Shown: in pieces, positions 54,001 through 60,000 of the stretch
Layout of the letters: every line of letters begins with the position of its first letter
Position numbering within the stretch: the first letter of the stretch is position 1
Source of the DNA: an uncultured Methanosarcinales archaeon
Lineage (GTDB): Archaea > Nanobdellota > Nanobdellia > Woesearchaeales > CAZYIM01
Length of the DNA stretch: 64,000 nt
Assembly: GCA_964647565.1 (NCBI GenBank)
Contig: CAZYIM010000001.1
Span: 84,184-148,183 of the forward strand
Reading direction: 5' to 3'
Program-made: the position numbers

Positions 54001-57000
54001 CCTGAGCAAGCGGATGACAGAAGAGATGTTCTTGATCATAGGATAACGTTATAATTCTGATTTTAAAAACTTTTTTAAAGCCCTAGGTCTTAATAATATA
54101 GTGGCAAAAGACACAAAAAAAGAGGCAGACATCCACAAAAAATATCCTTTGGCACGAGTGTTTAAGGATTTCTGGGATTATGCAGAGGGGTATAAGAAGC
54201 AGGTAATTATTTACTTAGTCCTCAGCATCATCACAGCCCTTATTGCAATGGCCCCACCCTATCTATATGGTACTATCATCGACCAGCTTACAGAAGGAAT
54301 ATATAATGAGATCTTTATCCTATTAGGTTTTCTGGCCATCAGTCATATCTGCTTCCAGGTCCTATCCAACTTTGTTGTCTACAAGACCAAGCTGCTTTCT
54401 TCTATTATCAGGAACCAGGCAAGAATAAAGGCATTCAGACATCTGTTCGGCCTGGATTACGAGTTCTATGAGAAGAACCCTCTGGGTAAGCTTTTTGCAA
54501 GAATTGACCTGGGATCCCAAGCATTGCGGGAGTTTGTCAAGATAGTCTATAAAACCACTTTTGTCAGGTTTTTCGGAATGTTCTTTGCAGCAATCTTCCT
54601 CTTCAGCATCAACTGGATTGTCGGGCTTTTTGCAGCGGTCTTCATGCTCGTCTATTTCATGTACGGTTTTTGGAGCTCCAAAGTGCTTCTTAATCTTGAG
54701 AACAGGGTGCACCGAGTCTCTGAAAAGGTGTATTCCAAGGTCTATGATTTCTTTTCCCACATATTGATTGTCAAGCTGCTGAATATCAAGGAGAAGCTTA
54801 TTGGTATTTTGAGCAAGTCTTATGAGTCCGTAATCGATGAGCAGAAGAAATCGAGGAAATTTGAGAGACAGACTGTTGCTGTTTCCAAGCTGATGATAGA
54901 TCTTGCTGCTGTTGCAGTTCTGACATACCTTGCAGTTGAGGTTATGGGTACTAGGATGACTATTGGAAAGGCTGTCATGATCTATGGCTTTTTCATCAAG
55001 TTTGCAGATTATTCCAAGAAGCTTTATGCAGACTATCAGGATCTGATTGCAAAAAGAACTGGCATGTACCGGCTGTCTCTGATATATAACAATACACCTA
55101 CTATTGGTGAGCCAAAAGTGCCTGTAAGGCCTAAGAACTGGAACAGAATCCTCTTTGATGATGTGGTTTTCAAGTATTCTTCAAAAAAGACTGCTGCTTT
55201 GAAAGAAACCAGTCTAGTAATTAACAAGGGTGAGAAGGTTGCAATTGTTGGCCTGTCAGGATCTGGCAAGTCAACCTTTGCAAAACTATTGTTGAAACTT
55301 TACCTGCCGAATGAAGGAAAAATCAGTATAGGAAATGTTGACATCCGTAACATCCATTCAGATGACCTCTATAATATGATCAAGATCGTTCCACAGGATA
55401 ACGAACTGATGGACGCAACAATAATTGAGAATCTTGAGATGGCAGTTGTCCAGAAAGTGAACAAGAAAGACTTTGTGAAATCTCTTAAGGATGCAGCCGC
55501 CTGGGACTTTGTAAAAAGACTGCCAAAAAAACTCGATACACATGTCGGGCCTCAAGGTATTAAGATCAGCGGAGGAGAAAAGCAGAGACTCTGCATCGCA
55601 CGAGCACTGCTTTCAAAGCCAGAAGTGCTTGTTCTAGATGAAGCCACCTCAAACCTTGATGTGATCACAGAGAAGAAAGTGCACACTGCCCTGCACAAGA
55701 TGCCGAGGAAGATGACTATTATTGCAATAACCCACAGGATATCATCAGTCTATCTATTCGACAGGATCATAGTAATGGACAAAGGCAGGATTGTTGGCGA
55801 AGGCACACACAAAAAGCTTTTAAGAAAAAATAAATATTACAAAAAGCTGCAGGCAGCAACACAAAAAGAGATAGAGAAGAAGAAAAACTAATTTCTCGAG
55901 TTTATTTCTCCCACTCCCACTGGACACTCCCTCGCGAGCTATTTAAAGCGTTCTTGATTGTTGTCTTTTGGGGAGACAATGATATATAGGGCAGGCGCAC
56001 CTATGGTGCTTTCAGGAAATCTGTTGATGGTCATCAATACAGTCCGCATCCTATCTCTTGAGCTTCAGAAGAGGTTCAAGAGAATCCTGGTCATCGACAC
56101 CCTGAACTGCCTGGATCCCCACAGCATCATATATAATAGGCAGCAATTGAAGAACATCTACTGCGTCCGGACTCCAAATCCTTATGACCTGATTGCAAGG
56201 CTGGGCACCTCTGAGAGTTTTATTGCAAAGCAGAAGATAGGCGCTATCCTGGTCAACTCGCTAAGCAATATCTTTGAAGATACCACACCCTACGAGGCAG
56301 AGGCCCTGTTGAAGCATGTCCTAAGGTCTCTTGAAGAGCTGGCAGCGAAACACAAGCTGGTTGTTGTGGTTGGAAGCAGTCCGAACGATGAACCCGGTGC
56401 AATGAAAGTGCACCAGTTGTTGAAAGAAAGAAAAGCAGTGGTGATATGATGGGTCACACAGTCCATCCCATGCGCTGGGTTGTCTACAGCAAGCTTAACC
56501 AGTTGAGAAAACTTTGCAAGGGATTGAGAGAGCCTGAGAAGTCAATTGCTGAGAGTTTGTTGATACATGTGCATAAAAACATCTCTGCATTGAACTACGC
56601 CAACCCTCTGCCAAGAGAGATTGAAAATAATATGTTGTTCTTGATGCTGATGGAAGAAAAGAAAAGGCGAGGGTTGATAATTGACGATCTTACACTGCTT
56701 GTGTTTTCGATAATGGTTAGGGGGTTAAAAGAAAAAGATGAAAGGAACTTTTATTGACTGTTACTTGCAGGGGGATGATGTGGTTGTATGGCTGAAGAGC
56801 TGTGGCAGGGATCTTCGGCTGGTTGACTCGTTTGTCCCTCGCATCTATATCCGCGGAAAGGACTTGGAAAGAGTTCGGAGTAGATTGTTTTCTAGGGGTA
56901 TTCGGTCTGGCTTTGTGAAAAAGAAAAGTTTTTTTCTTGGCAAGGAACAATGGGTCCTGGAAGTGCCTGTTGAGAAGCTTTCTTCATTTCATCATATTGT

Positions 57001-60000
57001 CAATCGCATAGAGAGATGGTTTGATTTTTCTTTGGAGCTGTACAACGCAGATCTGAAGTTGGAAGAGCATTACATGTTCGATAAGGGTCTGTTTCCAACA
57101 GCCAAGGTAAGTTTTGAAGTTGAAAACAATAGGATTGTTTCTATCAATGCATTAGATGATGCAGAAGAGCTGGACTATTCGCTTCCTAAATTCAAGGTTG
57201 CAGACCTTAAGGTGAAAACTGCAGACAATCTCTTCAAGGGAATGGATTCTGAGTTAGTGGCTGTGTTTTTTGGCAACAAACTGTACAAAAGCTCTGAACA
57301 GGAAATCCTGAATGATTTCAAGAAAGCCTTTGAAAAGAAAAATCCTGATATCATATGGATAGAGAACGGGAATTTGATTCTGCCTTTCCTAAAAGAGAAG
57401 TTCAGGGAATATAATATTGATTTTTGTTTTAATCGTTTTGAGAAGGATGACTTCGAGTTCAAGCAGGGCGATGTCTACACCAGCTATGGCAGGGTGTTCT
57501 ACAGGAGCCATTCGATATTTCTCAGAGGCAGGCTTCATTTCGATGCGCGCGCATTCTTTGCAGATGACACCGGACTGCATGGAATTGTGGATGGCGCAAG
57601 GGTTGCCAGGCAGCGCATCCAGAGAACAGAGATGCGGTCTGCAGGTGCTTGCGTAACCAACATGCTTTTGTACACTGCATGGAAAATGGATTTTCTATTG
57701 CCCTACAAGACAGGCATGTATGAGCGATTCAAGACTATGTACCAGCTCTATCAGGCAGATCGCGGGGCGTGCATCTTTGAGCCCAGGGTTGGCTTCCACA
57801 ACCATGTAACTGAGTTTGACTTTGTATCGTTATACCCCAACATCATGAACAAGTATAACCTGAGTCCTGAAACCTTGTTCTGCAAGTGCTGCAAAGATAA
57901 AGTGCCTGGATTACATTATCATTTCTGTCAGAAGACAAGGGGAGTTGTGCCAATTGTCGCTGAAAAGTTGATCAGGAGAAGGATAACTCTAAAGAAAAAA
58001 GGAACTCCTGAGTCAAAGCAGAAATGCGACTACATCAAATGGTTATTGGTCACTATGTTCGGCTACCAGGCCTTCAAGGGCAAGAAGATAGGCATTATCG
58101 AGATACATGAATCTATCCAGGCCTATGCCCGCCAGGTCATCATGAAATCTTGCAGGGCTGCTGAGAACCTGGGCTGGGATGTTGTGCATGGCATCATTGA
58201 TTCTGTCTATGTGAAAAAAAGGAATTTCTCCAAGAAGGAGCTGGAGATTGTTGAGAAGGAGATCTTCAATGCAACTGGAATGGAAGTCAAGCATGAAGGA
58301 AATTATAGATGGATTGTCTTCCTGCCTTCATTGGTAAATCCTAATGTACCGGTGCCTACCCGCTATTACGGTGTTTTTGAAGATGGGGAGTTGAAGTGCA
58401 GGGGTATCGAAGCCATAAGAAAGGATTGTCCTCCAATAGTCGCAAAGATGCAGAAGAAGATGATCGAGCTGCTTGCCAAGGCTAAAACTGAGGATGAGTT
58501 TAGACGGTTGTTTCCTAGTGTCTTTGAACTGTTGAAAAAATATGTGGCTGCCTTGGATCATGCCACCAAGGATGAATTGGCTATTGTCAAGATGATCAGC
58601 AAGCTGGACTACTCTGGCTCTATTGCCCAGGGCATTGTGGTAAGCCAGATGATCGAAGAGGGCTATGACGTAAAGCCAGGCCAAGCCATCGCCTATATCA
58701 TAAGGGATGTCAAACACAAGGATCCAAGAAAAAGATATATTTCCCTGGACAGGTTTAGTGGCGAGTTTGACAAACAGAAATATATTGAATTTCTTGTCAG
58801 GGCAACGTTCTCTATTTTACAGCCATTTGATATCAGCATGGACTTGCTTTTTGAATTGGTTAAAAACACAAAACAAATAAAGCTGGACAGCTTCAATGTC
58901 CTGGTTGAACGAAAATGTGTGGAAGATTCACCTTGAAGTATCCGGTGCAGGAAGTGTTGAGTGCCTTCGGCATAGGAAAAACAGATATTGAATATACTCC
59001 TAGCTATAATGTTGCTCCGCAGCAGGACATCATTGGTGTTGTTGATGATCAGGGCGAGCTTGGGCTTGAGCAGTTCCGCTGGGGCCTGATTCCTTTTTGG
59101 GCTAAGGACGAAAAGATCGGATATAAGATGATCAATGCAAGGGGTGAGACCATTGCAGAGAAGGCCTCTTTTCGGACCAGTTTTAAAAGTAAGAGATGCC
59201 TGGTGGCTGCAGACGGTTTCTATGAGTGGAAAAAGGTGGGCAATTCTAAGGTTCCTTTTTATTTTACTCTTGCAAACAGGAAGGTGTTTGGCTTTGCAGG
59301 TCTTTGGGACCAATGGAACTCTCCGGATGGTAAGGCCATAAAAACTTGCACAATCGTTACAACCAATCCAAATCCTTTGTTAAAGCAGGTGCATGACAGG
59401 ATGCCAGTCATCATTGAAAAAAAGGATGAGAAAAAATGGCTGGGACAAGAAACAGATATAGATGAATTGCAAGCACTTATCAAGCCTTATCCTGAAAAAC
59501 TGATGAAGAAATCTCAGGTCACCGAGTTTGTCAATTCTGTGAAGAACAATTCTCCAAAATGCATCGAAGCCCAGCAGACATTATTCTGAAATTGTCAAAA
59601 AGGAATTCTGACTTTTTTCAAGCATATCTTTTTTTGATCATGTTTGAAAGTGATATGAAAATGCTCAAAAAAGACATTTCTCCCCAGCAGAAAGGGAACA
59701 TCTGATTCTGGATCTTGAATTATCATGGCAGGAACAGTCAAGAAATATTGCTCTTTATTATTTTGAATAGTAACCCGCAATTCTGAATTTCTTACTTTTA
59801 CTGTGCCCCCTACGCCACCCGAATAAGATAAATTTCCAGATTCCCGCATTCCAAGCATTGCAGCCATTTGTTTAGGAACAACTGCACCAGAATCAACAAG
59901 AGCATTAATCTTCACTAATCTATCTAATTCTGTTCTGACAAATATTGGGATGAACGGAGCATTTTTTAATACCCCCATCAGGTCTGTCAATAGAGGTATA

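What a model noticed while it worked through the whole genome (the two positions that open the first line are those of the whole stretch)
55912..59589. DNA-damage (SOS-like) regulon marked by a CACTGGACA promoter box
A non-palindromic box CAC-NN-CCACTGGACA sits 11-20 nt upstream of the TATA box of the DNA repair genes: the RecA-like/PolB2/SRAP cassette (C1:140095), the radical SAM-DUF4130 cassette (C2:91778 and 91834), uvrAC (C46:11256), Lhr (C39:18804), nrdR-nrdD (C59:7360), ssb-radA (two boxes before C24:40088), a PD-(D/E)XK nuclease (C6:54162) and, with two mismatches, YprB-like C21:37358 and the Hel308-like helicase C13:39918. It defines a DNA-damage regulon of Woesearchaeales, placed like an activator site upstream of the BRE.
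Evidence so far: Among 2817 upstream regions, 11 have the 10-mer with at most one mismatch before a TATA-like run; 7 of the 11 lead repair or nucleotide-supply units; the reversed control gives 2, neither annotated. CACTGGACA occurs in 8 upstream regions against 0.2 expected. The exact 15-mer is in 38 of 401 order genomes, the reversed control in 5. In 29 relatives' loci the box lies mostly 11-23 nt before a TATA and precedes the ssb gene of the radA operon (3), DinB/Pol IV, ribonucleotide reductase, DUF763, a Cas4-like nuclease, TnpB/Cas12f (2), LAGLIDADG genes (2) and DNA methylases (3). Searches 106, 107, 188 found no report.
(Added by a program. Inside this text positions count along the whole contig: contig position 84,184 is position 1 of the stretch shown here. 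"Call 12" and the like, gene names such as g00115 and contig names such as C1 are that model's own, and its searches are not shown. The text may have been shortened before it was handed on; [...] marks where a part breaks off. The agent that wrote the report below was given it as the finding of a first reader that could run no searches.)

Follow-up and report, generated by a model that had tools for sequence, protein, structure and literature searches.

The report
DNA-repair promoter switch in tiny archaea
A short DNA word sits at a fixed distance in front of the promoters of DNA-repair genes across a large order of uncultured tiny archaea, and comparative evidence points to a spare copy of the replication-initiator protein Orc1/Cdc6 as the probable switch that reads it, much as in the hot-spring archaeon Saccharolobus.

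Summary
Real, and stronger than reported. CACTGGACA (window 55918-55926) lies exactly 13 nt before the TATA box of the iRadA-PPB2-PolB2-SRAP cassette. A matrix trained only on relatives finds 10 intergenic sites in this genome (shuffled controls 0), plus Lhr at 15 nt. Box-N13-TATA occurs in 278 of 401 order genomes (1051 matches; reversed control 1), before repair, recombination, nuclease and mobile genes.

New here is a candidate reader: the short second Orc1/Cdc6 paralogue (C23:23447).
- Three families lacking it have no box at radA (0 of 7); 50 of 52 other tested genomes that have it do.
- Its residue 314 aligns with the guanine-reading arginine of Orc1-1. It is Arg in all 10 CACTTGCCA-variant genomes and Lys in 49 others.
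- A blind set agreed only in part, and outside the order the match is looser.

It works like the Sulfolobales Orc1-2/DDRE system but has a different box and no general autoregulation. It is not LexA/SOS. Binding, activation and damage induction are inferred, not shown. This scan noted the motif before on other genomes, without a regulator. My literature searches found no report.

The parts
55912..55917 (+). partial upstream copy of the box (CACTCC)
   Evidence: sequence; upstream partial copies are common, mostly at -7 or -9
55918..55926 (+). core box CACTGGACA, proposed binding site of the Orc1/Cdc6 paralogue Cdc6-2
   Evidence: covariation
55931..55939 (+). second conserved element (consensus CGCGTRAGN) overlapping a weak BRE
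   Evidence: logo of 97 sites against 497 ordinary promoters of this genome
55940..55947 (+). TATA box TATTTAAA, 13 nt after the box
55979..56449 (+). iRadA-like gene (short RadA/Rad51 homologue, 156 aa)
   Evidence: ESM Atlas top hit a Rad51-domain cluster, score 0.91; no Pfam or NCBIfam hit; gene order as in PMC11791011
56449..56757 (+). PPB2-like small protein (102 aa, N-terminus MGHT resembling the MGRT motif)
   Evidence: position between iRadA and PolB2; PMC11791011 passages; assignment by context, no profile hit
56738..58936 (+). PolB2-type family B DNA polymerase (732 aa, IID in motif C)
   Evidence: PF00136; NF004416 and NF004418 below cut-off; motif printed
58915..59589 (+). SRAP (SOS-response-associated peptidase) gene
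   Evidence: PF02586, E 4e-75

Best explanation
The box is the operator of an order-wide DNA-repair and recombination regulon. It is most likely read by the short second Orc1/Cdc6 paralogue ('Cdc6-2', G000 C23:23447-24502, 351 aa). Proposed mechanism: the winged-helix domain binds the ORB-like 9-mer, with tandem copies adding sites; the AAA+ domain lies over the CGCG element beside a weak BRE and helps TFB/TBP load at the TATA box 13 nt downstream; this turns on mostly leaderless transcripts for repair genes, the PolB2 mutasome, nucleotide supply and hitch-hiking mobile genes. The switch is probably post-translational (ATP state, possibly PCNA through a PIP-like tail), because cdc6-2 itself usually lacks the box. 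SHOWN: the motif, its geometry, conservation and target-gene content; lineage-level co-absence with Cdc6-2; covariation with the recognition helix. INFERRED: binding, activation rather than repression, contact with TFB, damage induction, the role of the tail.
For: Geometry. Conservation: 278 of 401 genomes against 1 control match. PolB2 cassettes, 26-59% identical and patchy (20 of 151 genomes), carry box-TATA at their head in 12 of 19 other genomes, control 1 of 20. Co-absence: Cdc6-2 is in 371 of 401 genomes but not found in f41 (7 of 7), f114 (2 of 2) and f126 (1 of 1). Seven of these were examined: none has a box at radA, against 22 of 23 and 28 of 29 pattern-negative genomes that have Cdc6-2. 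Five of the seven keep a canonical Cdc6. Three other wHTH candidates persist in 3, 3 and 5 of those 5. Covariation: residue 314 is Arg in 9 of 9 CACTTGCCA genomes plus G134, and Lys in 49 other genomes; the two most discriminating alignment columns are 314 and 317; the variant needs at least 2 changes on the tree. Residue 314 aligns with Orc1-1 R341 and Orc1-3 R331, the guanine-contacting residues in PMC3089459. The Cdc6-1 helix is unchanged in 5 of 5 variant genomes. The box shares 8 of 9 letters with this genome's own ORB. Precedent: Orc1-2 binds the DDRE and activates damage genes (PMC6061795).
Against: No binding or expression data. 14 of the 30 order genomes without a Cdc6-2 hit still have standard sites, among them G379 (15 sites) and G088 (4 sites, 100% complete); G197, G313 and the class genome G478 also have boxes without a hit. 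Assembly gaps are likely but unproven. The loss lineages are long branches that also lack the ssb gene before radA, and a single origin of the loss is not excluded. Blind set: 1 of 3 Arg genomes keeps G at box position 5 (G062); 3 of 26 Lys genomes have a pyrimidine or mixed copies there (all three have Thr317); 1 has no box. Outside the order, Arg goes with G5 in G411 and G413, and several promoters have no readable box. Only three rival regulators were tested. Hef, Hjc, MCM and ligase lack the box in this genome. An AAA+ domain overlapping the BRE could equally repress.
Confidence: 0.62

Rival explanations
1. Same regulon, but read by another, unidentified transcription factor; Cdc6-2 only tracks it through shared ancestry and genome reduction.
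For: Box-bearing assemblies without a Cdc6-2 hit; loss lineages are fast-evolving; exceptions to the covariation; only 3 rival wHTH proteins tested; two wHTH families are themselves box-led.
Against: The covarying residue is the structurally defined base-reading position; the box is ORB-like; the tested rivals persist in box-less genomes; one box-led wHTH family was not found in G000; no WYL protein found in G000.
Confidence: 0.2
2. Cdc6-2 binds the box but represses by covering the BRE, or the regulon follows replication state or growth phase rather than DNA damage.
For: In the ORB register the CGCG element, where the AAA+ domain would sit, overlaps the BRE. Targets include MCM, NrdD and TA or R-M genes. 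PMC6061795 says Orc1-2 also represses genes.
Against: The BRE is weakened (A at -5 in 11 of 97 sites against 61% of ordinary promoters), which suits activation. One orientation and a fixed spacing. PolB2 operons are reported as damage-induced (PMC11791011).
Confidence: 0.12
3. The element is an extended core promoter read by an alternative TFB, or by the canonical initiator Cdc6-1 as a mini-ORB.
For: A second conserved element replaces the normal BRE; the box resembles the ORB.
Against: One full TFB in G000 and in the complete genome G025. Cdc6-1 is kept in box-less genomes and its helix does not change with the box variant.
Confidence: 0.04
4. A bacterial-type LexA repressor (C78:2129-2731) governs the box: a true SOS regulon.
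For: A Peptidase_S24 HTH protein is in the assembly.
Against: It lies on a 4.8-kb contig without a box or an obvious archaeal promoter and was not found in the complete box-bearing genome G025. The box is non-palindromic and lies upstream of the BRE.
Confidence: 0.02

Closest known systems
Sulfolobales Orc1-2 / DDRE (ANTTTC) DNA-damage regulon (PMC6061795, PMC5817253, PMC9738581)
   Same: A non-palindromic element just upstream of a weak BRE/TATA; an Orc1/Cdc6 paralogue away from the origin as reader (shown there, inferred here); PolB2 among the targets; intact ATPase motifs and winged helix.
   Different: Different box (CACTGGACA, often tandem, plus CGCGTRAG). The paralogue is short (about 355 aa), has a PIP-like tail, and scores far closer to Orc1-1 structures (195 bits) than to A. 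pernix ORC2 (71 bits). A box precedes cdc6-2 in only 2 of the 90 loci inspected, whereas Orc1-2 is autoinduced. No second full TFB. Targets are radA-ssb, Hef, Lhr, uvr, nrd and mobile genes, not pili or DNA import.
Haloarchaeal UV-response motif TTTCACTTTCA (PMC2556686)
   Same: A direct-repeat motif about 50 nt before the start codon and upstream of the TATA box of radA and other UV-induced genes; regulator not identified in that paper.
   Different: Different sequence and lineage; induction was measured there and not here.
Archaeal ORB / mini-ORB bound by Orc1-1 (PMC3089459)
   Same: 8 of 9 letters shared with this genome's ORB; the equivalent recognition-helix residue is implicated.
   Different: Sits at promoters at a fixed distance from TATA, with no AT-rich unwinding element or inverted pair; the real origin with two ORBs lies beside cdc6-1 at C10:48741-49198.
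Bacterial SOS (LexA) regulon
   Same: Similar target content: recombinase, uvr, translesion polymerases, SRAP, ribonucleotide reductase, integrases and toxin-antitoxin genes (SOS content recalled).
   Different: No LexA found in a complete box-bearing genome; the box is not a palindrome and sits at an activator position.

Membership tests
Orc1/Cdc6 family (candidate reader Cdc6-2) | AAA+ initiator-clade domain with intact Walker A/B and arginine finger, plus C-terminal winged helix | tested here: met
   PF22703; TIGR02928 173 bits, just under its cut-off of 181; conserved columns; model pLDDT 91, Foldseek top hits 2QBY_A and 2V1U
Sulfolobales Orc1-2/DDRE system | DDRE hexamer ANTTTC in the target promoters | tested here: not met
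   logo of 97 sites shows CACTGGACA and CGCGTRAG, with no conserved ANTTTC
Sulfolobales Orc1-2/DDRE system | regulator belongs to the Cdc6/Orc1-2 clade | tested here: inconclusive
   profile scores favour Orc1-1 structures, but the Orc1-2 cluster evolves fast (PMC3914693); no tree with reference Orc1-2 sequences was built
Sulfolobales Orc1-2/DDRE system | element upstream of a weak BRE and TATA | tested here: met
   PMC5817253 passages
Sulfolobales Orc1-2/DDRE system | regulator gene carries its own element (autoregulation) | tested here: not met
   a box-like site precedes cdc6-2 only in G066 and G029 among the 90 loci inspected; none in G000
Sulfolobales Orc1-2/DDRE system | direct binding and damage-induced activation | not testable with these tools
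   needs binding and expression experiments
LexA/SOS regulon | LexA repressor present wherever the box is | tested here: not met
   no tblastn hit in the complete genome G025, which has 7 sites
Replication origin (ORB) | ORB with G-string flanking an AT-rich unwinding element next to cdc6 | tested here: not met
   met by C10:48741-49198, not by the box sites
PolB2 mutasome operon (iRadA-PPB2-PolB2) | three adjacent co-oriented genes: inactive RadA homologue, small helical protein, PolB2 | tested here: met
   PPB2 assigned by position and N-terminus only

The most novel reading that the evidence does not exclude
Nanobdellota archaea independently turned a duplicate of the replication initiator into a global DNA-damage transcription activator. 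It reads a domesticated origin box through a traceable recognition code (residues 314/317 against box position 5), senses replication stress through a PCNA-binding tail, and drives a conserved three-microprotein operon as effector or feedback. Incoming polymerase cassettes and selfish nucleases repeatedly acquire the box.
Probability: 0.3. Interest if true: 0.88.

Novelty: new variant of a known kind. Interest (0 to 1): 0.74.

Why it matters
A global DNA-damage regulator has been shown in archaea for Sulfolobales, and PMC6061795 asks whether Orc1/Cdc6 paralogues do the same elsewhere. This finding gives a named protein, a box, a predicted specificity residue and natural variant pairs for one of the largest uncultured archaeal orders. 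That makes the question testable with purified protein and oligonucleotides, without a culture. The box also flags unannotated genes as repair candidates: a conserved microprotein operon, two wHTH families, Bro-N and Cas4-like proteins.

Tried and rejected
- WYL regulator: none found in G000, which is 87% complete.
- Alternative TFB: one full TFB.
- LexA: only on a small contig; not found in G025.
- Cdc6-1 as reader: rejected.
- PadR-like, MarR-like and 'ITLRRYEKP' wHTH proteins: present in box-less genomes.
- RNA evidence: no RNA holder listed, so no reads were laid.
- Viral contigs: 41 matches whose downstream genes had no hit in the two Woesearchaeales proteomes; read as chance.
- Complex prediction of Cdc6-2 with the three microproteins: no answer, score 0.00; not used as evidence either way.
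- I first misread and expected G134 to carry the standard box. It has none and carries the variant; its label is therefore wrong and is corrected in my counts.
- The careful tree did not finish; both trees are quick trees and poorly resolved.
- Literature searches without a report of this box or regulator.
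Full report
Observation. The window carries, on the + strand, CACTCC-CACTGGACA (55912-55926), 13 nt, TATTTAAA (55940-55947), then four overlapping genes: a 156-aa RadA-like protein (ESM Atlas Rad51 cluster 0.91), a 102-aa protein, a family B polymerase (PF00136) and SRAP (PF02586). 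This matches the iRadA-PPB2-PolB2 operon of PMC11791011 (passages). In the 2.68-Mb genome exact CACTGGACA occurs 13 times; 6 copies have a TATA at exactly 13 nt and 1 at 15. With one mismatch, 8 of 341 are at 13; reversed and complemented controls reach at most 3 in any bin. A weight matrix trained on 118 sites from relatives only finds 10 sites in G000, all intergenic; five box-shuffled matrices find 0; a 15-nt spacer adds Lhr. The 11 promoters lead the PolB2 cassette, radical SAM TIGR03916 with DUF4130, ssb-radA, nrdR-nrdD, a PD-(D/E)XK nuclease, uvrA-uvrC, Lhr, a YprB-like nuclease, the C-terminal half of a split Hel308, an HTH/DUF559-like nuclease and a microprotein operon. Hef, Hjc, MCM and ligase have no box in this genome. 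Genes were called with my own ORF script.

Conservation. CACWGGACA-N13-TWTWWAWA is in 278 of 401 genomes of the order (1051 matches); the reversed pattern matches once. A logo of 97 sites shows a partial second copy at -7 (23 sites) or -9 (13), a second element CGCGTRAGN at the BRE position, and a first ATG 52 nt after the box start in 29 sites, which suggests leaderless mRNAs. Ordinary promoters of G000 have an A-rich BRE (497 promoters; A at -5 61%, at -4 82%), box promoters do not (11 and 49 of 97). Of 92 sites in relatives (30 loci chosen by the tool, 62 sites that I took from genomes with many listed matches, not by gene), I classed 38 as core repair, recombination or replication (Hef 9, ssb-radA 11, Lhr 4, uvrA, uvrB, DinB, Hjc, MCM, Cas4-like, YprB, DUF763, YhcG and others), 10 Bro-N/ORF6N, 5 Xer, 5 LAGLIDADG/TnpB, 3 R-M, 8 toxin-antitoxin, 7 wHTH, 11 microprotein or non-coding, 5 other. 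The complete 774-kb genome G025 has 7 sites, all at 13 nt. PolB2 is patchy (20 of 151 genomes), yet 12 of 19 other cassettes carry box-TATA at their head (two lacked enough upstream DNA; control 1 of 20). A capped scan of all GTDB genomes gave 121 loci. Of 80 titles shown, 30 say Woesearchaeota, 8 Nanoarchaeota/Nanoarchaeia, 3 uncultured archaeon, 1 Aenigmatarchaeota, 8 bacteria and 30 'uncultured Methanosarcinales'. Many of the last lead close homologues of G000 or G025 genes; I did not resolve that label. With a relaxed pattern, 158 of 189 order genomes and 13 of 62 other class genomes match; the control matches in 7 of those 62.

The candidate reader. The box shares 8 of 9 letters with the ORBs of this genome's origin beside cdc6-1 (C10:48741-49198; ORB motif recalled, then found). 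G000 has a second, short paralogue, Cdc6-2 (C23:23447-24502), with intact ATPase motifs and a winged helix. It is found in 371 of 401 order genomes and 30 of 35 other class genomes.

(i) Co-absence. Cdc6-2 is not found in f41 (7 of 7), f114 (2 of 2) or f126 (1 of 1). At radA promoters of 30 pattern-negative genomes, 22 of 23 with Cdc6-2 had the box or a variant and 0 of 7 without it did. In a second set, one genome per family, 28 of 29 with Cdc6-2 had one (several read by eye from the printed sequence). Five loss genomes keep canonical Cdc6, and three other wHTH proteins remain in 3, 3 and 5 of them. In the class, 4 of 5 genomes without Cdc6-2 have no box at radA; G478 has a box-like repeat. 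Against this: 14 of the 30 order assemblies without a hit do have standard sites (G379 15, G088 4), and G197 and G313 have boxes too. These are scattered in families whose other members have the gene, so gaps are likely but not shown. The loss lineages are long branches, and one origin is not excluded.

(ii) Covariation. The variant CACTTGCCA-N13-TATA is in 11 of 401 genomes: all 3 of f56, both of f98, 4 of f135, and two single hits before unrelated genes. G134 and G313 of f135 have it at 15 nt. Among 60 Cdc6-2 rows, residue 314 is Arg in 9 of 9 variant genomes, in G134 and in a second copy in G135, and Lys in the other 49; columns 314 and 317 discriminate best; the label needs at least 2 changes on a quick tree. 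A profile alignment places residue 314 on chain residue 330 of 2QBY_A and 321 of 2QBY_B. With offsets of 11 and 10, fixed on the ISM glycines, these are R341 of Orc1-1 and R331 of Orc1-3, the guanine-contacting HTH arginines of PMC3089459 (passages). The Cdc6-1 helix is unchanged in 5 of 5 variant genomes.

Blind test. Of 3 Arg genomes, 2 have a pyrimidine at box position 5 and G062 keeps G. Of 26 Lys genomes, 22 have a purine, 3 (all Thr317) are mixed or pyrimidine, and 1 has no box. In other orders Arg goes with T5 in 9 genomes by my reading, with G5 in G411 and G413, and with other repeats in G451, G466 and G458; the one readable Lys genome, G423, has G5 unlike its Arg relatives. The rule is a tendency over a few independent events, not a law. 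G209 and G131 (flagged unpublished) are one variant row and one standard row, and G273 is one logo site; the claims stand without them.

Mechanism. One orientation, a fixed spacing and a weak BRE fit an activator that recruits TFB/TBP, as argued for the Sulfolobus UV motif (PMC5817253, passages) and shown for Orc1-2 (PMC6061795, passages and the first of two parts of the discussion; PMC9738581, passages). In the register CAGTGGAAA-N4-GGGG of the ORB against CACTGGACA-N4-CGCG of the box, the AAA+ domain would lie next to the BRE. This is inference and is also compatible with repression. A box precedes cdc6-2 in only 2 of 90 loci inspected, so control is likely post-translational. 52 of 60 Cdc6-2 rows end in a KKLTEF-like tail. 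A similar tail ends 16 of 2560 G000 proteins, among them ones that I recognise as Fen1, RNase HII and NreA; the PIP-box reading is recalled. The top-scoring promoter drives three conserved 23-55 aa microproteins, usually just after cdc6-2; their function is unknown.

Comparison and novelty. It works like the Sulfolobales Orc1-2/DDRE system but fails its membership features (box, autoregulation); orthology is unresolved (PMC3914693, passages). The haloarchaeal motif has similar placement but another sequence (PMC2556686, passages). It is not LexA-based. Searches listed no report of this box or regulator. A 2026 preprint on 208 complete Nanobdellota genomes (10.64898/2026.05.13.725050, passages) has no occurrence of 'DNA damage', 'DNA repair' or 'Orc1-2'; its supplements were not seen, and subscription papers are not covered. 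Earlier notes of this scan saw the same motif on other genomes and named no regulator in the lines shown; these are unchecked AI notes. Verdict: a real, order-wide regulatory element with a well-supported but unproven reader; new variant of a known kind; interest 0.74.

Noticed in passing
G000 C23:26064-26386 (L001:5565-5887); alignments A2-A4: Conserved operon of three microproteins (an amphipathic one, an acidic one ending in an EEGFMxGY-like motif, a basic Trp-containing one) under the strongest box, usually right after cdc6-2; missed by ordinary gene calling.
   Followed up: partly
G000 C1:102581-103246 and C13:38335-39918: Hel308-like helicase is split into two distant genes; only the C-terminal half is box-led.
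   Followed up: partly
G000 C78:2129-2731: LexA-like protein with a DNA methylase on a 4.8-kb contig; not found in G025; probably mobile or contaminant.
   Followed up: partly
G000 C10:48741-49198: Replication origin: two inverted ORBs with G-strings around an AT-rich stretch beside cdc6-1.
   Followed up: yes
G000 C14:29455-39519: Array of about 13 paralogous 240-275 aa ORFs with Lys-rich N-termini.
   Followed up: no
L049, L069, L084, L088, L094, L040, L078, L161:13358-13855: Two unannotated wHTH-like families are repeatedly box-led and may be second-tier regulators.
   Followed up: partly
L258 (G135) and L163 (G025, near 45320-46501): Extra Cdc6 copies: a second Cdc6-2 with an Arg-type helix in G135, and a third Cdc6 in G025.
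   Followed up: no
L002, between the TATA box and ssb (C24:39966-40087), and relatives: The ssb-radA leader is 100-180 nt long with a recurring GAAA-N-GCGAAAG-like stretch before the ribosome-binding site; possibly a structured 5' UTR.
   Followed up: no
L378-L380: In one Woesearchaeota contig the iRadA and PPB2 homologues each have their own box-led promoter.
   Followed up: partly
window 60318-61607: Two tandem genes that look like CheB-type methylesterases (recognised by eye).
   Followed up: no
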